Of a stretch of 14,285 nt of DNA, positions 1,389-13,585 are shown one piece after another. Position 1 is the stretch's first letter, and each line of letters opens with the position of its first letter. Source of the DNA: a virus (lineage: Duplodnaviria > Heunggongvirae > Uroviricota > Caudoviricetes); the IMG/VR virus record IMGVR_UViG_2602041568_000006, positions 1 to 14,285 of that record. The stretch is one strand, 5' to 3'. The notes below the pieces were generated by a model that saw only the letters and a list, made by a program, of their open reading frames with translations, was not told the DNA's origin and searched no databases. A program made the translations under genes and the position numbers.

Positions 1389-1778
1389 TCAGGCGGCTGC
1401 ACCCGCCGTTTTCTCGTACTTACTGATAGTGATCTCGACCTTCCCTTCCGGGATAACCGGTCCCCACTCCACCAGCATTCTTTTCACCTGACTGTCGTCT
1501 TCCCACACACCCGCGTGGGTCAGGGCGTCAAACAGTGCCTTGTTATAGTTGTCCAGATCGCGGATCCGGTTATCCGGAGGAAACAACACGATCTCCACTG
1601 AAGCAGGTGCCGACGTTGGTTTTGGCAGACGACGTAACTGCTCAACTATTGCTGCGCACGCCGCGCTCTGAAATTTTCGCCCCGCCGCGCTTATCAGGCT
1701 CTTACCAGAAAATGCCCCTTTGTTGGGGTGTCGCCAGTACGTGTTCACGCTGGGCGGAAAAGGCAAGATCAGCTTCAT
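1389..1778 (-). CDS. rusA: Holliday-junction resolvase RusA (crossover junction endodeoxyribonuclease)
   Basis: 129-aa ORF; the N-terminal LPFPPSVNTYW motif, size and acidic residues (DLDN) are typical of RusA. ATGA overlap with the upstream gene at 1775-1778. Confidence 0.8.
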   Translation of the reverse strand: MKLILPFPPSVNTYWRHPNKGAFSGKSLISAAGRKFQSAACAAIVEQLRRLPKPTSAPASVEIVLFPPDNRIRDLDNYNKALFDALTHAGVWEDDSQVKRMLVEWGPVIPEGKVEITISKYEKTAGAAA

Positions 1779-2101
1779 ACTTTCAGGCCCCTCTCATGTA
1801 ACCAGTGGGTTGCACGCAGCCTTGCGTTTTCCTCACCGGCAAGCAGTGCGCGGATAATCCCGACCGCCTCGCTGTCGTCGTCCTTCACCGCGGTATGAAG
1901 CGTTATCCCCCGGGCCACTCCACGCTTTATCGTGATGACGCCTTTTTTCTCCAGTGCGCGAAGATGCTCCACCGCTGCATTCACTGAACGGTATCCCAGC
2001 ATGGTTGCCACCTCCTGATTGGTTGGCGGAAAGCCACGCTCTTTCTGATAAGAAATCAGCATATCCAGCACCTGCTGCTGGCATTGAGTTAATGTCGTCA
2101 T
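1775..2101 (-). CDS. LexA-like winged-helix DNA-binding protein lacking the S24 peptidase domain
   Basis: 108-aa ORF. Residues 5-68 align by eye with the E. coli LexA N-terminal domain (QQQVLDMLISY...PPT..EVA..LGYRS.NAA.EHLRALEKKGVI.I..G.ARGI.L). No Ser/Lys peptidase domain follows. ATGA overlaps at both ends. Confidence 0.7.
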   Translation of the reverse strand: MTTLTQCQQQVLDMLISYQKERGFPPTNQEVATMLGYRSVNAAVEHLRALEKKGVITIKRGVARGITLHTAVKDDDSEAVGIIRALLAGEENARLRATHWLHERGLKV

Positions 2102-2751
2102 GCCGCCATCTCCCTGACCAGTTTTTCCGCCTGCTGGCGAACCTGCGCCAGAAACGCCTCACCACATGCCTCAAGTTCATCGCGCCCGATGTAGCTGATT
2201 GCCGGTCCCTTCCAGGTCTTGTCAAAAACAGCAATAGCACCAGCGAAAAAAGCTCCTGTCGGTACCTGCTTCTCGTCTTTCGGGATAAACCAGACAGGCA
2301 GTTCAAAACCAATACGCCCGCGAATAAAAGCAATATGATCTGCATCTTCCGGCCACCACACTTCGCTGGTGGCAGCTTTGATCAGGAAAACATAGCGCCC
2401 GCCCTTATCACGCATGGCACTGGCATGTTTCATGATGTAACGCATGCCGGTGATGTATTGCCCCTCATGCTGACTGGCGCGGCTGTATGGAGGATTACCA
2501 AAGGCAGCACCTTTAAGCTCCGCAAGGCGTTCTGACCAGTCATGCGCCAGCGCGTTGTCTTCCGCCGTGTAATACGCGGCACATTTGGCGTTATCACCGT
2601 CAGTGAACAGATCCAGAACAAACGGGCCAAACAGGGTGTTAATTCCCCAGAAAATGTTGTCCGGCGTGCGCCACTGATCACCCACTTCCTTCAGTTCATG
2701 GGCTGGTTTGTTCCGCAGTTCCACCAGCTCCTGGCAATATTTATTACTCAT
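2098..2751 (-). CDS. Phage DNA N6-adenine methyltransferase (Dam-type, orphan)
   Basis: NPPY catalytic motif (AAFGNPPYSRA), typical of phage N-6-adenine methyltransferases. Start placed at ATG 2751 (MSNKYCQ...), which overlaps the upstream stop as TAATG; the track's longer 2784 start would overlap the upstream gene. Confidence 0.75.
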   Translation of the reverse strand: MSNKYCQELVELRNKPAHELKEVGDQWRTPDNIFWGINTLFGPFVLDLFTDGDNAKCAAYYTAEDNALAHDWSERLAELKGAAFGNPPYSRASQHEGQYITGMRYIMKHASAMRDKGGRYVFLIKAATSEVWWPEDADHIAFIRGRIGFELPVWFIPKDEKQVPTGAFFAGAIAVFDKTWKGPAISYIGRDELEACGEAFLAQVRQQAEKLVREMAA

Positions 2752-3245
2752 TAAGCCCCCACGTAATTCCCTGACAGATACCACTCTTCACCCGATGCAG
2801 CGCGCTTGCTGCTTTTCCGTAAACACTGCTCACGACGCACCAGAAAATTGTTTCGTTCTGGCTGGGAGTGGCTTTCACGGAATGCCGCCATCCACACCGT
2901 TGCAGCACGACGGTATAGGCCCCTGGACTCCAGTTCTTCCGCCTGGCGGGTCAGGCACAAAATCACCCGGGGATCGTTAGTGCCGACATAGAAATTGCGC
3001 ACAGGTCTGGTTTCACGAACTGGTTGTGGCTCCGGCTCCTGCGCTCTCTCAGTCAGGCGTGGGAAATGTCTGCGTGTATCTCCTTCACAACGGTGAGCCA
3101 CACGCCCACTCTGACGTAACTTGCTTGCTGACTGCAGAACGCGCTGCCGTGAGTAACCTGCAAAAGCATCCGCAATGTCTCCGGAAGTACACCCCGGATG
3201 GGCTTCAATGAATTTCTGAACTTCATTCAAAAGACTCATGATCAC
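2751..3245 (-). CDS. yfdN: YfdN-like prophage protein with N-terminal winged-helix-like region
   Basis: 164-aa ORF, the same length I recall for K-12 CPS-53 YfdN, and it sits next to the methyltransferase and replication-like gene as yfdM/yfdN/yfdO do. The 3245 start is GTG; ATG at 3239 with a GGGGG SD 6 nt upstream is an alternative. Symbol is recalled, not verified. Confidence 0.5.
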   Translation of the reverse strand: MIMSLLNEVQKFIEAHPGCTSGDIADAFAGYSRQRVLQSASKLRQSGRVAHRCEGDTRRHFPRLTERAQEPEPQPVRETRPVRNFYVGTNDPRVILCLTRQAEELESRGLYRRAATVWMAAFRESHSQPERNNFLVRREQCLRKSSKRAASGEEWYLSGNYVGA

Positions 3246-4281: not shown

Positions 4282-5426
4282 TTGCGCCCCCTTACCTCTG
4301 AAGGGTTCAGCGACAAATTTATGAGGCAGGCCAGCGCCGAAGCATCATTAATATAGTCATATAAGCTAACAGCCAGCGGAGATTCGGCTTTTGCCAACAT
4401 AGGATAAAGCTGCTGCAGCCAGACCTGATGAATTGATGAAATGTAGGAACAGAGAACGCTGGCGTTATGTGCAACGTCGCTCGGTACAGCGGGCTTTGAA
4501 AGCTGTTTCTCCATCTGGTTAAAGGCATTGATGTATGCCTCTTTGAACTGGGCAGCACGTTTACCCGTGAAACCCATAGCAAGAAACGCAAAGCCGTCGC
4601 GGGTTATTTGATAGCAAGGTAGTTTGCGGCCTGATGCGTCGATGTACTCACTGAGCTGGAAATTCAGCTCAGTAAATTCGGCAGAGCATTCAAGAGACGC
4701 AATTTTTTGAATGACGTTTTTGTGTTGTTTGCCGAAATAACTAGCAACAGCCAGAGAAGAAGTAACAACTTTGTCTGCAATAATGCAAAGTTCAGGTTGA
4801 ACTAAGGCAGGGATCGTAGCCATGATGGCAGCCTCCGTATGCAATGGATAACTTCCACCACCGGAAACGCCAATTTCGCTGGTGGTGAACTGAGCAGGGT
4901 TGGCGTAACCGGCGCATACGGAAACCGGCGCACCTTTCGGTGCCCCCACCCAGCCCACCATAATTTGGGTATAGCTGAGTTGTAGCAACAAAAAAGACGC
5001 TAACGCGCCAATTGTCGCCGTATGCAATTCCAGGACGCCAATCCCGGCACCCGCTTTATAAGGTGCCTGAACAGTGTAACGTCCCGGAATGGCAGAATCA
5101 ATGTGCTGGTGGTCCTTCACACTCAACAAAATCACGCCTGAATTTCCACAAAGGACTAAAGCACTCATGCGGGTAGTCTTTGCGAAGATAGATAACGCGC
5201 TGTGTTTCTGGCTCCCAACGAATAACATGAACATAAAGTCCTCTTCCGTCACGAAACCAGCGGTTAAGTTCCTGCACAACTCGCCCCCCACAGTCAGGTA
5301 AAGTTCTCTGTGGTTACTTACAGCCAGGTGATTTGGTAATCTGCATTCATGCCGTAACAACAGGTGTGCAGCGACACTGACCACCAGCTGTTGCGACAAA
5401 CGGTTATTTGCCGTTAAACTGTTCAT
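4278..5426 (-). CDS. Rha-family phage regulatory protein; Rha domain begins at internal Met (ATG 4823, GGAGG SD) after an uncharacterised ~200-codon in-frame N-terminal extension
   Basis: Continuous 382-codon ORF. Residues 202-290 (MATIPALVQPELCIIADKVVTSSLAVASYFGKQHKNVIQKI...EFTELNFQ...RDGFAFLAMGFTGKRAAQFKEAYINAFNQME) match the Phage_pRha pattern. A strong GGAGG lies 8 nt upstream of the internal ATG at 4823. The N-terminal 200 aa are A/G/S/L/V/H-rich and poorly charged. The 5426 ATG overlaps the upstream stop as ATGA. Confidence 0.5.
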   Translation of the reverse strand: MNSLTANNRLSQQLVVSVAAHLLLRHECRLPNHLAVSNHRELYLTVGGELCRNLTAGFVTEEDFMFMLFVGSQKHSALSIFAKTTRMSALVLCGNSGVILLSVKDHQHIDSAIPGRYTVQAPYKAGAGIGVLELHTATIGALASFLLLQLSYTQIMVGWVGAPKGAPVSVCAGYANPAQFTTSEIGVSGGGSYPLHTEAAIMATIPALVQPELCIIADKVVTSSLAVASYFGKQHKNVIQKIASLECSAEFTELNFQLSEYIDASGRKLPCYQITRDGFAFLAMGFTGKRAAQFKEAYINAFNQMEKQLSKPAVPSDVAHNASVLCSYISSIHQVWLQQLYPMLAKAESPLAVSLYDYINDASALACLINLSLNPSEVRGRK

Positions 5427-6250: not shown

Positions 6251-6315
6251 ACTAAGTTTTATTAGATGTTAATTATCAATCTATCTTAGGTCAATAAAAA
6301 CTAAGATTACTTAGT
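6251..6315. promoter_or_regulatory. OR-like tripartite operator between cro and cI: 16-bp sites of the ACTAAG-N4-CTTAGT family
   Basis: Sites at 6251-6266 (ACTAAGTTTTATTAGA), 6275-6290 (degenerate, ATCAATCTATCTTAGG) and 6300-6315 (ACTAAGATTACTTAGT, perfect 6-bp arms), spaced about 24-25 bp centre to centre as in lambda OR1-3. Confidence 0.45.
6266..6294 (-). promoter_or_regulatory. Candidate pR-like sigma70 promoter for cro (TTGACC-N17-TAACAT on the minus strand)
   Basis: -35 TTGACC at 6294-6289 and -10 TAACAT at 6271-6266 with a 17-bp spacer; overlapped by the operator half-sites. Confidence 0.35.
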
Positions 6316-6336
6316 AATTAAAGAAATGGTGCTCCT

Positions 6337-6963
6337 ATGGAAACGGTTGGTCAGCGTATAAAAGCTCTGAGAAGAGTTACCAGAACGTCCCAGAAAGAAT
6401 TGGGTAAATTTTGTGGAGTAAGTGACGTTGCTGTGGGGTACTGGGAGAAAGACATCAATGTCCCTGGTGGGGAAGCACTTTCAAAATTAGCGAAGTTCTT
6501 CAATACGTCAATAGATTACATTCTTTATGGTGCGGAGTTTGAAGGCAAACTCGTCACAAACATGCGCAGAGTTCCTGTAATCTCGTGGGTTCAGGCTGGG
6601 CAGTTTACTGAGTGCAGGACAGCAGAAGTGTTTAGTGAAGTAGACAAGTGGGTAGATACATCATTAAAGATTGGTGATAACTCATTTGCATTGGAGGTTA
6701 AAGGCGACTCCATGACTAACCCTAACGGCCTCCCAACAATACCAGAAGGCGCAACAGTGATTGTAGATCCTGATGCAGAACCCCGGCATGGAAAAATAGT
6801 CATCGCTAGACTTGATGGAACAAACGAAGCCACAGTAAAAAAATTAGTTATCGATGGCCCTCAAAAGTTTTTAGTGCCATTAAATCCCCGGTACCCCAAC
6901 ATCCCGATCAATGGTAATTGCCTCATCATTGGTGTAGTCAAAGGAGTTCAATACGAACTCTAG
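6337..6963 (+). CDS. CI-like prophage repressor (N-terminal XRE HTH, C-terminal S24 LexA-like autopeptidase domain)
   Basis: 208-aa ORF. N-terminal HTH (QRIKALRRVTRTSQKELGKFCGVSDVAVGYWEK) and C-terminal S24 motifs (GDSMTNP...; VKKL Lys). No obvious SD, suggesting a leaderless or poorly translated mRNA as for lambda cI. Confidence 0.85.
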   Translation: METVGQRIKALRRVTRTSQKELGKFCGVSDVAVGYWEKDINVPGGEALSKLAKFFNTSIDYILYGAEFEGKLVTNMRRVPVISWVQAGQFTECRTAEVFSEVDKWVDTSLKIGDNSFALEVKGDSMTNPNGLPTIPEGATVIVDPDAEPRHGKIVIARLDGTNEATVKKLVIDGPQKFLVPLNPRYPNIPINGNCLIIGVVKGVQYEL

Positions 6964-7307: not shown

Positions 7308-7802
7308 TTATGCTTGTTGGTCATCATTAATATCCGTTAGTTCATTCTCTAGAGGTAGATCTCCCGCACACCAAGCTATAAATTTTTCTTTGGTTGTTAA
7401 ATCGTACTTAGTTGGAACACCAGCAAAAATACAGGCCCGAATGAAAGCCGCTCGTTCAAGTGATTTCCATGGATTACTATCAGTATCTTGGATTTTTAAA
7501 TACCTAGCTTGCAACTGATCTTCAGGAAGGGTATCAGACTCAATCAGCAGTCTTTTGTAATGCCTCGCTTGCTCTTTAGACATTCCAGCCTCCTGGCCAA
7601 ACTGATAGACCAACTGAAGAACCGAAAGTACGGCAACAAACAAACCGAAAATAAATAAATTACTGTACGGGGCGAAAACTGAAAAACCGAGAACGATTAA
7701 CATCAACGTTATTAATTTATCAATGCGAGTTAACAACGTGTAATTCATCTTCTCCAATACATAAGAGTAGTGAACATAAAATTTATAATCGTCTCTGGTC
7801 AT
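7308..7802 (-). CDS. AT-rich membrane protein with an N-terminal two-helix hairpin and soluble acidic C-terminal domain; candidate superinfection-exclusion/abortive-infection moron
   Basis: 164-aa ORF with two predicted TM helices (LITLMLIVLGFSVFAPY, LFIFGLFVAVLSVLQLVYQF). AT-rich third codon positions, own orientation opposite to the flanking genes, and a downstream minus-strand terminator at 7118-7139. Overlaps the antisense plus ORF 7207-7518. Confidence 0.5.
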   Translation of the reverse strand: MTRDDYKFYVHYSYVLEKMNYTLLTRIDKLITLMLIVLGFSVFAPYSNLFIFGLFVAVLSVLQLVYQFGQEAGMSKEQARHYKRLLIESDTLPEDQLQARYLKIQDTDSNPWKSLERAAFIRACIFAGVPTKYDLTTKEKFIAWCAGDLPLENELTDINDDQQA

Positions 7803-12596: not shown

Positions 12597-13016
12597 TTAC
12601 TCATCATCAATAGATGATACGCAATATTTATTTTTAAATTTAAGGTTCTTTGGCGTAACTTCATCAGAGATATCAAAACCGTCCAGAATTCTATTGAATG
12701 TAGCTTCTGGCATATCATCATGAACAGAAATCTCACCCGATCGCTGCTTTCTAACCATGTTATCCACTCGCCAAATTATAGCTTCAGCGTAAACAACATA
12801 ACTTGGATGCTTGATAAAGCGATGATCACCAGAATTCAAGATGCAAGACGGATCGTGGGGGACACCATCCTTGATACTAGAAATATTAACAACTAAAACA
12901 CAATAACAATCGTTAACGGGGTAATAAACAGGATCATTACAAATCACATGAAGATGATTGCATGGCCCAGTTGGGGCAAGCACAGTTCCTTTCCTGTATG
13001 GCTGATAATCCGTCAT
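12597..13016 (-). CDS. 139-aa Cys/His-rich protein of unrecognised family, translationally coupled to the Panacea-like gene; candidate toxin/effector
   Basis: ATGA overlap with the upstream gene at 13013-13016, AT-rich codon usage, and no motif I recognise (GPCNHLHVICNDPVYYPVNDCYC...). The toxin role is inferred only from gene order (socAB-like). Confidence 0.5.
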   Translation of the reverse strand: MTDYQPYRKGTVLAPTGPCNHLHVICNDPVYYPVNDCYCVLVVNISSIKDGVPHDPSCILNSGDHRFIKHPSYVVYAEAIIWRVDNMVRKQRSGEISVHDDMPEATFNRILDGFDISDEVTPKNLKFKNKYCVSSIDDE

Positions 13017-13585
13017 GATAATTGCAAAGAAAATTCCTTAAGTTTCTGAGATTCTTCCATTTTGCCAATTATGCGATTAGCCTCATCCTCGCTTTTACCC
13101 TCACTGATCAGCATTTCTTTCAGGTCTATAGGCTTACGAGAATTGCCAGGATCGTGCCACTCTGGACAAACGCTTTCTAAATGCGTCATATTTGCGAGAT
13201 CAAATCGGTTCATATGCCCATACCGAGAATAGATTTCATCTAAAATCCGGATATCTGCACGACTCAATTCATCAAAGACCTCGTCTGCATCCATTTCCCT
13301 CGGATCTGAACGCAACGATACATTATGCCCGTTCGTCTCTATCAAGTTGTACCAGTAGTCACCAATGCCTTCAGCCTTACCGCGAATCAAGTTCAGCGTA
13401 TTCGACATGACTGGTCCAAATTTCATAGAGTAAAGGCTATCTTCGCCGATCATCCTGCCATGCTTCAAAATCGACTGGCGGTTAGACAGATAGAGCAACT
13501 TCATCAATTTCAGATATGCCATGCGCCCACCTCGCTTAAGAAGTAGGTATGCAGCCATTTGAGCTACTTTTTCTTCGCAAAACAT
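13013..13585 (-). CDS. Panacea-domain (DUF4065, SocA/GepA-like) protein; candidate antitoxin
   Basis: 190-aa ORF with GAGG SD 9 nt upstream of ATG 13585. Matches the Panacea pattern as I recall it (AAYLLLKRGG...LKLMKLLYLSNRQSILKHGRMIGEDSLYSMKFGPVMSNTL) and has the C-terminal THLESVCPEW-type motif. Confidence 0.6.
   Translation of the reverse strand: MFCEEKVAQMAAYLLLKRGGRMAYLKLMKLLYLSNRQSILKHGRMIGEDSLYSMKFGPVMSNTLNLIRGKAEGIGDYWYNLIETNGHNVSLRSDPREMDADEVFDELSRADIRILDEIYSRYGHMNRFDLANMTHLESVCPEWHDPGNSRKPIDLKEMLISEGKSEDEANRIIGKMEESQKLKEFSLQLS

What the first reader, a model, noticed from the sequence alone, without database searches (positions are those of the whole stretch)
1775..2101. Phage-encoded LexA DNA-binding domain without a peptidase domain
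The 108-aa protein keeps the LexA winged-helix domain but lacks the self-cleaving S24 domain. It might bind SOS boxes as a non-cleavable repressor or mimic, decoupling some host or phage promoters from RecA-mediated induction. It is embedded in the replication/nin operon beside an orphan Dam methyltransferase.
Basis: partly seen in the sequence, partly recalled or inferred. Interest (0 to 1): 0.5.

Follow-up and report, generated by a model that had tools for sequence, protein, structure and literature searches.

The report
Prophage LexA-like DNA-binding protein, no protease
This is a real and very common prophage gene (in about 41% of complete E. coli genomes) for a short copy of the SOS repressor LexA that keeps the DNA-reading part, replaces the self-cleaving part with a small helical tail, and has no tested function.

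Summary
The ORF at 1775-2101 (- strand, 108 aa) has a full-length LexA_DNA_bind domain (Pfam E 2.9e-19). Its model superposes on LexA in the E. coli LexA-DNA complex at 0.9 Å with 50% identity. There is no S24 peptidase. The gene sits in the early-right operon, PerC-Dam-[this gene]-RusA, with ATGA stop/start overlaps on both sides.

It is not new as an object. It matches PHROG 362 full length, RefSeq names it "LexA family protein", and it is SfV orf42. It occurs in 2233 of 5426 complete E. coli genomes, and relatives occur in prophages across Enterobacteriaceae. I found no experimental paper on it.

New here:
- A conserved two-helix C-terminal tail replaces the protease domain.
- Purifying selection is strong (pN/pS 0.05).
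- RusA is the constant neighbour; the upstream methyltransferase is swapped among three unrelated families or is absent.
- The four LexA residues that read CTGT (S39, N41, A42, E45) are all kept. In GIL01 gp6, the one characterised phage LexA-domain protein (an activator with its own operator), only the serine is unchanged.

Best reading (about 0.4): a RecA-proof, LexA-type regulator acting on CTGT-type boxes. Main rival (about 0.3): a gp6-like regulator with its own operator. DNA binding, dimerisation and targets are untested.

The parts
1775..2101 (-). Gene for the 108-aa LexA-like protein (homologue of SfV orf42; RefSeq 'LexA family protein' WP_000210170.1 at the same position in a near-identical prophage)
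   Evidence: ORF. Pfam PF01726 E 2.9e-19. phrog_362 E 1.2e-59, full length. RefSeq annotation. pN/pS 0.05.
1892..2101 (-). Winged helix-turn-helix domain, residues 1-70 (helices 6-22, 28-35, 40-52; wing strands 56-58 and 66-68)
   Evidence: AF2 model with alignment, pLDDT 78-89 over this part. 0.9 Å rmsd to 3jso LexA. pN/pS 0.003.
1946..1987 (-). Recognition helix, residues 39-52 (SVNAAVEHLRALEK). It keeps LexA S39, N41, A42 and E45. E44 is replaced by V.
   Evidence: Alignments to E. coli LexA. Contact residues taken from PMC11442139, bioRxiv 10.1101/2020.07.14.201889 and PMC3091678.
1793..1879 (-). Conserved C-terminal two-helix module, residues 75-103 (helices 75-88 and 93-103). It stands where LexA has its linker and S24 domain. 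Proposed oligomerisation element (inferred).
   Evidence: AF2 secondary structure, pLDDT 87-88. Always-hydrophobic positions 82, 83, 86, 87, 97, 100, 101, with A97 and L101 invariant. No PDB sequence relative.
1835..1840 (-). A88-G89, which aligns at low confidence with the LexA A84-G85 cleavage site. Not conserved across the family and predicted helical, so not regarded as a cleavage site.
   Evidence: alignment; not conserved; helix.
2110..2114 (-). Shine-Dalgarno-like GGGAG, 8 nt upstream of the ATG, inside the 3' end of dam
   Evidence: Read directly from the sequence.
2098..2101 (-). ATGA overlap: dam stop codon and start codon of the LexA-like gene (translational coupling)
   Evidence: The same 4-nt overlap is seen in Cronobacter and Salmonella prophages.
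1775..1778 (-). ATGA overlap: stop codon of the LexA-like gene and rusA start codon
   Evidence: Conserved in Cronobacter, Salmonella, Atlantibacter and Kosakonia prophages.
2098..2751 (-). Orphan phage N6-adenine methyltransferase (Dam, PF05869). The mechanical ORF extends to a GTG at 2784. RefSeq starts it at the ATG at 2751.
1389..1778 (-). RusA Holliday-junction resolvase, the near-constant downstream partner
   Evidence: Neighbour census.
2751..3245 (-). PerC/YfdN-type regulator gene, upstream member of the same tightly packed operon
6266..6294 (-). pR-like sigma-70 promoter (TTGACC-17-TAACAT) upstream of cro. Presumed source of the transcript that reaches the LexA-like gene.
   Evidence: Operator-like palindromes at 6283-6318. 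No convincing - strand terminator between cro and rusA.
6337..6963 (+). CI-type prophage repressor (HTH_3 + Peptidase_S24). This is the RecA-cleavable switch that controls the operon.

Best explanation
The gene encodes a two-module DNA-binding protein. Residues 1-70 are a LexA-type winged helix that derives from a proteobacterial LexA and still carries LexA's CTGT-reading residues. Residues 75-103 are a conserved two-helix module in place of the S24 protease/dimerisation domain.

The gene has no promoter of its own. It is translationally coupled to dam and rusA in the early-right operon, so the protein is made only after the CI repressor is inactivated, that is, during prophage induction or infection. 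During SOS-triggered induction RecA* is also destroying host LexA.

I propose three steps:
1. It assembles through the C-terminal helices, most simply as a dimer.
2. It binds palindromes built from CTGT-type half-sites.
3. It acts as a RecA-insensitive LexA surrogate, holding LexA-box promoters closed. These could be host SOS genes and/or LexA-controlled genes of this or co-resident prophages.

Shown: the gene, the fold, loss of the protease domain, retention of the base-reading residues, strong purifying selection, the operon position, and the distribution of the family.

Inferred: oligomerisation through the tail, the DNA target, repression rather than activation, and the benefit to the phage.
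For: Domain and fold: Pfam E 2.9e-19. 0.9 Å rmsd and 50% identity to LexA in the LexA-DNA complex 3jso.

No S24 domain, and the score is below the lexA equivalog cut-off.

Base-reading residues:
- S39, N41, A42 and E45 are identical to E. coli LexA. These are the residues reported to mediate direct readout of CTGT (PMC11442139; bioRxiv 10.1101/2020.07.14.201889).
- S39, N41 and A42 are also invariant in a set of full-length LexA orthologues.
- GIL01 gp6, which recognises a different palindrome, has K, T and R at the positions of N41, A42 and E45 (PMC6182141).

Selection: 44 nucleotide variants give only 9 protein variants. pN/pS is 0.05 overall, 0.003 in the winged helix and 0.12 in the tail.

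Tail: conserved across genera, with seven always-hydrophobic positions. Confidently helical, joined by a lower-confidence linker.

Timing:
- The gene lies in the pR operon with 4-nt overlaps and no internal promoter or terminator found.
- In the Klebsiella/Enterobacter clade the homologue lies downstream of a near-consensus SOS box (TACTGTTTATTTATACAGTA), so there too it should be switched on when LexA is cleaved.

Precedent for phage factors that damp or re-wire the SOS response: GIL01 gp7 and Listeria AriS.
Against: - No DNA-binding or in vivo data exist for this family. No paper was found in 10 literature searches (including).
- E44, listed as a DNA-contacting residue in PMC3091678, is V here and is never E in the family. 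The backbone contact R28 is lost.
- Other clades have L, T, I, G or A at position 45. All Enterobacteriaceae share the same SOS box (my own background knowledge). This variation therefore argues that the family as a whole is not locked to that box.
- The window has only one exact CTGT-N8-ACAG. It has a GC-rich spacer, lies inside the Rha ORF, and is at chance level.
- Cronobacter, Atlantibacter, Kosakonia, Leclercia and Pseudescherichia loci have no AT-rich-spacer SOS-like palindrome within about 4-6 kb of the gene; two have only off-consensus, one-mismatch palindromes.
- Dimerisation is not demonstrated. The monomer model cannot show it, and a helical hydrophobic-moment test was not significant.
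- With a different dimerisation element, the half-site spacing need not be N8.
- The only characterised analogue is an activator.
Confidence: 0.4

Rival explanations
1. A gp6-type, phage-specific regulator. The LexA fold has been recruited to recognise an operator of the phage's own, somewhere outside this window (for example in the late or lysis region). There it activates or represses phage genes and has no role at host SOS boxes.
For: GIL01 gp6 is exactly this: a 66-aa LexA_DNA_bind-only protein (Pfam E 7.9e-14) that activates the late promoter P3 from its own palindrome (PMC6182141). Positions 42, 44 and 45 of the recognition helix vary between clades of the enterobacterial family while synteny is kept. 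That pattern is expected if protein and operator co-evolve within phages. E44 and R28 of LexA are lost in every member. Standalone LexA-domain proteins are widespread in phages with very different hosts.
Against: No candidate operator was found. Intergenic palindromes in the window are only terminators and the CI/Cro operators. No shared SOS-like palindrome lies near the gene in other clades. In this clade the four primary LexA base-reading residues are unchanged, whereas three of the four are changed in gp6. Position 45 also varies (E/D/S/Q/T) among genuine LexA orthologues, so that variation is weak evidence for altered specificity. Late transcription in lambdoid phages is already handled by Q, which is present next to the module.
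Confidence: 0.3
2. A DNA-transaction accessory rather than a transcription factor. The protein would work with its translationally coupled neighbour RusA, and perhaps the upstream methyltransferase. It might target, load or restrain the resolvase on phage DNA. This would resemble the small DNA-binding protein NinH in the lambda nin region, which is a Fis mimic.
For: RusA directly follows the gene, with overlapping stop/start codons, in 100 of 108 family loci (80 of these are near-identical E. coli copies) and in E. coli, Shigella, Citrobacter, Salmonella, Cronobacter, Atlantibacter, Kosakonia, Leclercia, Raoultella and Pseudescherichia. The upstream slot is filled by three unrelated methyltransferase families (PF05869, PF02086, PF00145) or by PerC. 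NinH shows that nin regions carry small dimeric DNA-binding proteins (PMC7166090, abstract seen).
Against: Gene order in lambdoid nin regions is conserved by modular descent, so adjacency is weak evidence. RusA is common in phages without this gene (my own background knowledge, for example DLP12 and phage 82). Some members lack RusA: mEp460, mEp390 and the Klebsiella clade. A sequence-specific recognition helix under near-absolute constraint (pN/pS 0.003) fits an operator-binding regulator better than an architectural protein.
Confidence: 0.12
3. An SOS-box competitor or LexA antagonist rather than a repressor. A weakly binding or monomeric winged helix would occupy LexA half-sites or interfere with LexA on DNA. 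This would change the order or strength of SOS gene expression instead of shutting it.
For: It shares the retained base-reading residues with the best explanation. The backbone contact R28 and E44 are lost, which should lower affinity. Dimerisation is unproven.
Against: A conserved extra module of about 30 residues is hard to explain for a simple monomeric competitor. Nothing measured here supports antagonism specifically.
Confidence: 0.06
4. A decaying remnant of a captured lexA gene with no function.
For: It resembles a LexA truncated shortly after the cleavage-site region. The profile alignment runs to LexA residue 87.
Against: pN/pS is 0.05, with no internal stops in 44 nucleotide variants. 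The full-length family is conserved at 40-60% identity across about ten genera. The start and stop codons are coupled to the neighbours. It is present in 41% of complete E. coli genomes.
Confidence: 0.01

Closest known systems
GIL01 gp6 (Bacillus thuringiensis tectivirus; Fornelos et al. 2018, PMC6182141)
   Same: Phage-encoded. Consists of a LexA_DNA_bind winged helix without the S24 domain (both match PF01726). Encoded in an early operon that opens on SOS induction. About 44-50% identical to the N-terminal domain of the LexA of its own host lineage, which suggests capture from a host lexA.
   Different: gp6 is 66 aa and ends after the wing. This protein has a further conserved two-helix module. 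The two are not detectably related by BLASTP (35% identity in a forced MAFFT alignment), so they are probably independent captures. gp6 has changed the base-reading positions (K, T and R at LexA 41, 42 and 45) and binds GaCACAnnTGTGaC as an activator. This protein keeps N41, A42 and E45. Its function is untested.
E. coli LexA (SOS repressor; PDB 3jso, 1jhf, 1lea)
   Same: The winged-helix fold is the same (0.9 Å rmsd, 50% identity). S39, N41, A42, E45, H46, K53 and the wing R64-G65-I66 are identical.
   Different: No S24 catalytic/dimerisation domain (S119 and K156 are absent). No conserved A-G cleavage site. No SOS box at its own gene. E44V and R28N. A C-terminal helical hairpin stands in place of the cleavage loop and beta-domain. 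Encoded by a prophage inside an operon. Fails the TIGR00498 cut-off.
PHROG 362 / RefSeq 'LexA family protein (transcriptional regulator)' of lambdoid prophages (SfV orf42, SfII, cdtI, mEp460 'LexA DNA binding domain protein', Stx2a/Stx2c phages)
   Same: This is that family. The match is full length (E 1.2e-59) and 96-100% identical in 50 phage records and 80 IMG/VR contigs. Same synteny.
   Different: Nothing structural. The database names ('transcriptional repressor', and in some records 'SOS-response repressor and protease LexA' or 'RecA-mediated autopeptidases') are inferred from the domain. The protease and autopeptidase names are wrong, because that domain is absent.
LexA N-terminal cleavage fragment (residues 1-84) and non-cleavable LexA mutants (lexA3/Ind-, S119A)
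   Same: Conceptually it is the same object as a LexA that RecA* cannot inactivate. The isolated N-terminal domain is known to retain specific but weaker operator binding (my own background knowledge: Hurstel et al. 1986; Kim and Little 1992).
   Different: The natural fragment is unstable and lacks a dimerisation element. The phage protein has an added conserved module and is under selection as a stable product.
Other mobile-element modulators of SOS: GIL01 gp7 (LexA co-repressor), Listeria phage AriS (RecA-level inhibitor), plasmid PsiB, prophage DinI
   Same: A mobile element tunes the host SOS response around the time of induction or entry. PsiB is cited from my own background knowledge.
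   Different: Those act on the LexA protein or on RecA, not by supplying a substitute DNA-binding domain. There is no sequence or fold relationship.

Membership tests
Bona fide LexA (NCBIfam TIGR00498 equivalog) | N-terminal LexA-type winged helix-turn-helix | tested here: met
   PF01726 E 2.9e-19, positions 1-65 of 65. 0.9 Å rmsd to 3jso.
Bona fide LexA (NCBIfam TIGR00498 equivalog) | C-terminal S24 peptidase/dimerisation domain with the Ser119-Lys156 dyad | tested here: not met
   The protein ends at residue 108. No PF00717 match. TIGR00498 aligns only positions 1-91 of 203 and scores 70.5 against a cut-off of 110.95.
Bona fide LexA (NCBIfam TIGR00498 equivalog) | Ala84-Gly85 self-cleavage site in a strand-loop-strand region | tested here: not met
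   A88-G89 aligns to it only at low per-column confidence. It is not conserved in the family. The region is predicted helical.
Bona fide LexA (NCBIfam TIGR00498 equivalog) | Residues that read CTGT (S39, N41, A42, E45) | tested here: met
   All four are identical. The residue list comes from PMC11442139. E44 and R28 are not kept.
Bona fide LexA (NCBIfam TIGR00498 equivalog) | Binds CTGT-N8-ACAG operators and represses SOS genes | not testable with these tools
   Needs EMSA, DAP-seq or reporter assays.
Bona fide LexA (NCBIfam TIGR00498 equivalog) | Autoregulated from an SOS box at its own promoter | tested here: not met
   No own promoter. The gene is overlapped by dam and rusA. No SOS box lies nearby.
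Phage LexA-domain-only regulators (GIL01 gp6 type) | Phage-encoded protein made of a LexA_DNA_bind domain without S24 | tested here: met
   gp6 itself matches PF01726 at E 7.9e-14.
Phage LexA-domain-only regulators (GIL01 gp6 type) | Direct sequence relationship to gp6 | tested here: not met
   BLASTP gives no alignment. MAFFT gives 35% identity over 66 residues. Each protein is closer to the LexA of its own host lineage.
Phage LexA-domain-only regulators (GIL01 gp6 type) | Altered recognition residues (gp6 K38) and an operator of its own at a late promoter, with activation | tested here: inconclusive
   The recognition residues are LexA-like, not gp6-like. No candidate operator is present in the window. 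Activation cannot be tested here.
PHROG 362 / enterobacterial prophage 'LexA family protein' | Full-length match, about 106 aa, including the C-terminal helices | tested here: met
   E 1.2e-59, residues 1-108 against profile 1-106 of 106. Tail conserved in 36 diverse members.
PHROG 362 / enterobacterial prophage 'LexA family protein' | Position in the nin region of a lambdoid prophage, immediately upstream of rusA | tested here: met
Restriction-modification controller (C) proteins | Small HTH_3-type regulator with a C-box, controlling a linked R-M pair | tested here: not met
   The fold is a LexA winged helix, not HTH_3. No restriction gene is present. The methyltransferase is orphan and absent in 28 of 108 family loci.
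Known anti-phage defence systems (PADLOC) | Match to a defence-system protein model | tested here: not met
   Only a marginal generic winged-helix match (CARF3, E 3.6e-4).

The most novel reading that the evidence does not exclude
Prophages in about four of ten E. coli strains, and in many other Enterobacteriaceae, carry a RecA-proof LexA surrogate. It would be made only after induction and would dimerise through a new helical module. It would then re-close LexA-box promoters while host LexA is being destroyed. The phage would thereby shut off the host SOS programme, including error-prone polymerases, colicins, and LexA-controlled antirepressors of rival prophages, during its own lytic growth.
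Probability: 0.3. Interest if true: 0.65.

Novelty: new member of a known kind. Interest (0 to 1): 0.35.

Why it matters
If the protein binds SOS boxes, a very common prophage gene would be an unrecognised second input into the E. coli SOS network. It is present in 2233 of 5426 complete E. coli genomes, including Stx-converting, cdt-converting and Shigella serotype-converting phages. That could affect mutagenesis, colicin release and cross-induction of co-resident prophages after DNA-damaging antibiotics. It would also be a second, independently evolved case of phages recruiting the LexA DNA-binding domain, after GIL01 gp6.

If instead it has its own operator, it is an ordinary phage regulator. 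The main practical outcome would then be to correct the database names that call it a "protease" or "autopeptidase".

Either way the question is cheap to settle at the bench.

Tried and rejected
- **Retained LexA cleavage site.** HMMER and hhalign extend the alignment to LexA residue 87, and A88-G89 falls on A84-G85. The pair is not conserved in the family and the segment is predicted helical. Rejected.
- **SOS boxes in the window.** There is one exact CTGT-N8-ACAG at 5308-5323, inside the Rha ORF, with a GC-rich spacer and poor flanks. With one mismatch allowed, 5 are found against 4.9 expected. Other spacings from 0 to 20 give nothing notable. Treated as chance.
- **Cis target at the late-region methyltransferase.** A near-consensus SOS box lies in codons 3-9 of that gene, outside the window. 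The same box is kept in Citrobacter, Morganella and Providencia phages, where tblastn over the 11.6-12.3 kb fetched around the box found no LexA-like gene. It is therefore most simply a host LexA site. Not linked.
- **Unbiased search for intergenic palindromes.** Only terminators and the CI/Cro operators were found.
- **SOS-like symmetric palindromes near the gene in other clades.** None is consistent.
- **Dam as an obligate partner or C-protein model.** The upstream gene is PF05869, PF02086, PF00145 or PerC. Rejected as obligate.
- **Defence-system membership.** None.
- **Tail against PDB sequences.** No match. Foldseek hits beyond LexA are generic winged-helix regulators at 8-11 Å rmsd.
- **Helical hydrophobic moment of the two tail helices.** Not different from shuffles, so this gives no support for or against dimerisation.
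- **Single-sequence AlphaFold.** Poor model, pLDDT 54. Replaced by the model built with an alignment.
- **Literature.** No experimental paper on this enterobacterial family in 10 full-text searches. The SfV genome paper and the LexA-DNA structure paper are not held in the library.
- **Names for the closest non-family LexA relatives.** Uninformative.
Full report
**1. The observation**

The ORF at 1775-2101 on the - strand starts with ATG and encodes 108 aa.
- It matches Pfam LexA_DNA_bind over the whole profile (residues 1-65, E 2.9e-19).
- It matches E. coli LexA chains in the PDB at E about 1e-15.
- A single-sequence AlphaFold model was poor (pLDDT 54).
- A model built on a 36-sequence family alignment has mean pLDDT 83 and shows helices 6-22, 28-35 and 40-52, a two-strand wing, a lower-confidence linker, and two further helices at 75-88 and 93-103.
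- The winged helix superposes on LexA in the LexA-DNA crystal structure 3jso at 0.9 Å over 67-68 residues with 50-51% identity.
- There is no Peptidase_S24 match. The NCBIfam lexA equivalog covers only positions 1-91 of 203 and scores 70.5 against a cut-off of 110.95.

**2. Context**

The window is part of an SfV-like lambdoid prophage of E. coli. In a near-identical genome the prophage is integrated at dusA, beside zur and dinF.

On the - strand the early-right operon runs in this order:
- pR-like promoter (6266-6294)
- cro
- a CII-like gene
- a Rha/Ash gene
- a small ORF
- an O-like replication gene
- PerC/YfdN
- Dam (PF05869)
- the LexA-like gene
- RusA
- a KilA-N gene

The divergent CI gene (6337-6963) has HTH_3 plus Peptidase_S24 and is the RecA-cleavable switch.

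The LexA-like ATG overlaps the dam stop codon (ATGA at 2098-2101). Its own stop overlaps the rusA ATG (ATGA at 1775-1778). A GGGAG lies 8 nt upstream of the start. No internal promoter or convincing - strand terminator was found. The gene should therefore be expressed as a delayed-early gene after CI is inactivated.

**3. Is it a known thing?**

Yes, as a catalogued gene.
- It matches phrog_362 ('transcriptional repressor') full length at E 1.2e-59.
- RefSeq calls it 'LexA family protein'.
- 61 phage records hold a match, and 50 of them are 95-100% identical. These include SfV (orf42), SfII, SfIV, cdtI, mEp460 ('LexA DNA binding domain protein') and Stx2a/Stx2c-converting phages.
- Over 560 IMG/VR stretches encode a relative.
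- 2233 of 5426 complete E. coli genomes carry it, with up to 4 copies per genome.
- Some records name it 'SOS-response repressor and protease LexA' or 'RecA-mediated autopeptidases'. Those names are wrong, because the protease domain is absent.

Profile searches show a family of 105-135-aa proteins, 40-60% identical to this one. It occurs in prophages of Salmonella, Citrobacter, Cronobacter, Klebsiella, Enterobacter, Atlantibacter, Kosakonia, Leclercia, Raoultella, Pseudescherichia and Hafnia.

Ten full-text literature searches found no experimental work on this family (including).

Standalone LexA-domain proteins are also common in predicted viral structures, for example from Tectiviridae and Mycobacterium phage Wildcat.

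**4. What the family alignment adds**

Invariant or nearly invariant positions include Q8, G23, P26, E30, G36, S39, N41, L50, K53, R64-G65-I66, A97 and L101.

The part after the wing is a conserved family feature, with consensus EAVxLLRALLAGExxARxRAIxFLxxRG. Positions 82, 83, 86, 87, 97, 100 and 101 are hydrophobic in every member. This segment has no sequence relative in the PDB.

HMMER and hhalign carry the alignment with LexA as far as LexA residue 87, which places A88-G89 on the A84-G85 cleavage site. Per-column confidence there is low, the pair is not conserved across the family, and the segment is predicted helical. I do not regard it as a cleavage site. It is compatible with descent from a lexA gene truncated just beyond the cleavage region.

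Across 83 loci there are 44 distinct nucleotide sequences but only 9 proteins, and none has an internal stop. pN/pS is 0.05 overall, 0.003 in the winged helix and 0.12 in the tail. The gene is functional and tightly constrained.

**5. DNA-reading residues**

Published descriptions of the E. coli LexA-DNA complex say this:
- Readout of CTGT is mediated primarily by S39, N41, A42 and E45 (PMC11442139).
- N41 and E45 are the key base contacts and R28 is a backbone contact (bioRxiv 10.1101/2020.07.14.201889).
- An older summary also lists E44 (PMC3091678).

The window protein has S39, N41, A42 and E45, but V44 and N28.

In a set of full-length LexA orthologues, S39, N41 and A42 are invariant, R28 is nearly invariant, and position 45 is E, D, S, Q, T or R.

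Within the phage family:
- S39 and N41 are invariant.
- Position 44 is never E.
- R28 is never kept.
- Position 45 is E in the E. coli, Salmonella, Kosakonia and Enterobacter clades, D in Cronobacter and Atlantibacter, and L, T, I, G or A elsewhere.

This clade therefore very probably still recognises a CTGT-like half-site. The family as a whole is not visibly locked to one operator.

**6. The characterised analogue**

GIL01 gp6 of a Bacillus thuringiensis tectivirus is a 66-aa truncated LexA homologue. It binds its own palindrome, GaCACAnnTGTGaC, overlapping the -35 element of the late promoter P3, and activates it. K38 is essential (PMC6182141).

gp6 also matches PF01726. It is not detectably related to the window protein by BLASTP. 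It ends after the wing and has K, T and R where LexA and the window protein have N41, A42 and E45.

The two proteins look like independent captures of a host LexA domain. One has a re-tuned specificity. The other has the ancestral reading residues and an added C-terminal module.

**7. Neighbours**

I took a census of 111 fetched loci. Three of them are true lexA genes of Betaproteobacteria, which leaves 108 family loci; 80 of those are near-identical E. coli copies.
- RusA lies directly downstream in 100.
- The upstream gene is a PF05869 Dam in 60, PerC in 28, a D12-class methyltransferase (PF02086) in 8, and a C5 methyltransferase (PF00145) in 4.
- The 130-135-aa Klebsiella/Enterobacter clade has a different arrangement: a phrog_1813 ORF, then the LexA-like gene, then a 67-aa phrog_1212 ORF, then RusA or DUF968.
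- In that clade the unit is preceded by a near-consensus SOS box. In Klebsiella the box sits in front of a dinI gene (TACTGTTTATTTATACAGTA).

RusA, not Dam, is the constant partner. In both arrangements the gene lies in a unit that is switched on when RecA* is active.

**8. Search for targets**

- The window holds one exact CTGT-N8-ACAG (5308-5323). It is inside the Rha ORF, has a GC-rich spacer and is at chance level.
- Other spacings give nothing.
- Intergenic palindromes are terminators and the CI/Cro operators only.
- Related prophages have good SOS boxes. One lies in the first codons of the late-region N6_N4 methyltransferase. The same box is conserved in Citrobacter, Morganella and Providencia phages, where tblastn over the 11.6-12.3 kb fetched around it found no LexA-like gene. 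It is therefore most simply a host LexA site.
- No AT-rich-spacer SOS-like palindrome lies near the gene in the Cronobacter, Atlantibacter, Kosakonia, Leclercia or Pseudescherichia loci; the only hits there are off-consensus, one-mismatch palindromes in two loci.

If the protein is a transcription factor, its sites are in the host chromosome or in distant parts of the phage.

**9. Mechanism**

Best reading (confidence about 0.4): a RecA-insensitive LexA-type regulator.
- It is made from the early-right operon.
- It is assembled through the C-terminal helices, most simply as a dimer. In LexA the missing S24 domain provides dimerisation, and the isolated LexA N-terminal domain binds operators only weakly (my own background knowledge).
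- It binds palindromes of CTGT-type half-sites and so keeps LexA-box promoters closed while host LexA is cleaved.

Sections 1-5 and 7 are shown. Oligomerisation, the target, and the direction of regulation are inferred. A helical hydrophobic-moment test did not help, and no multimer prediction could be run.

Rivals:
- A gp6-like regulator with an operator of its own (about 0.3).
- An accessory to RusA or to DNA transactions, in the manner of lambda NinH (about 0.12; PMC7166090).
- A weak competitor or antagonist at SOS boxes (about 0.06).
- A dead remnant (about 0.01, contradicted).

There is no match to known defence systems.

**10. Verdict**

The finding is real and correctly described, but it is not a new object. 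It is one copy of a very common, already annotated prophage family.

What remains open is the function. The computational evidence here gives several new points: the conserved tail, the retained LexA reading residues in contrast to gp6, the constant RusA partner, the very strong constraint and the 41% prevalence. These make the SOS-surrogate idea reasonable and easy to test, but they do not establish it.

Novelty: a new member of a known kind (phage LexA-domain-only regulators). Interest: 0.35.

Noticed in passing
L001:1163-1182 (about 1.8 kb beyond the left end of the window); SfV L008:34170-34189; L009:9310-9329; L115, L116, L117:6146-6165: A near-consensus SOS box (TACTGTAAAAATAAACAGTG) lies inside codons 3-9 of the late-region N6_N4 DNA methyltransferase gene, between Q and the holin gene. 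It is conserved, with spacer changes, in Citrobacter phiNP, Morganella IME1369_02 and Providencia PSTRCR_117lys, and is degraded in Klebsiella Kp4866-6. This suggests host LexA control of a late-region methyltransferase, independent of the LexA-like gene.
   Followed up: partly
L016:1103-1122, L001:9534-9553, L018:996-1015: A near-consensus SOS box (TACTGTTTTTATATACAGTA) lies inside the coding sequence of a 230-aa CI-type (XRE + S24) repressor allele in related prophages. The CI allele in this window does not have it. Its function is unknown.
   Followed up: no
L002:5385-6593; L015:4560-5979; L026, L030, L031: In the Klebsiella/Enterobacter clade the LexA-like gene is longer (130-135 aa, with an N-terminal extension). 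It is flanked by conserved ORFs of unknown function (phrog_1813 upstream, 67-aa phrog_1212 downstream). It lies behind a strong SOS box, with dinI as first gene in Klebsiella. This looks like an SOS-inducible unit.
   Followed up: partly
window 2098-2784 and the equivalent position in L005, L009, L011, L013, L021-L024, L032, L033: The slot immediately upstream of the LexA-like gene is filled by three unrelated DNA methyltransferase families (PF05869, PF02086, PF00145), sometimes two in tandem, or by none (PerC directly upstream). This is non-homologous replacement at a fixed position.
   Followed up: partly
window 12597-13585 (- strand): A SocA/Panacea antitoxin-domain gene (13013-13585, Pfam E 2.2e-19) overlaps by 4 nt a 139-aa ORF with no Pfam match (12597-13016, phrog_19071). 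This is a candidate Panacea-type toxin-antitoxin pair at the prophage end, next to the dusA remnant. Neither gene is in PADLOC.
   Followed up: partly
window 7308-7802 (- strand): A 164-aa ORF of unknown function (phrog_6315, no Pfam match) with a long hydrophobic stretch, in the gap downstream of cI. This is the position where lambdoid phages often carry exclusion morons.
   Followed up: no
proteins P0132, P0133, P0148, P0151, P0153, P0156, P0159, P0162, P0163 (not in the window): Proteins of 140-350 aa with two tandem LexA_DNA_bind-like stretches (possible single-chain pseudo-dimers) appear among distant hits. One is from a Planctomycetaceae MAG.
   Followed up: no
proteins P0025, P0092, P0098, P0121, P0253, P0254 (not in the window): Database proteins that join Dam or RusA domains to the LexA-like domain (179-243 aa). 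They are probably frameshift or read-through gene calls across the ATGA overlaps rather than real fusions.
   Followed up: no
L001:16191-19593: In the near-identical genome the prophage sits at dusA, a few kb from zur and dinF, so the prophage LexA-like gene lies about 14 kb from dinF. By my own background knowledge, the host lexA gene lies just beyond dinF. This is probably a coincidence of the dusA integration hot spot.
   Followed up: no
phage records listed: Several GenBank records name this 108-aa protein 'SOS-response repressor and protease LexA' or 'RecA-mediated autopeptidases'. RefSeq phage records label the adjacent Dam as 'phosphoadenosine phosphosulfate reductase'. Both names look like annotation errors carried over from PHROG or FIG names.
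   Followed up: no
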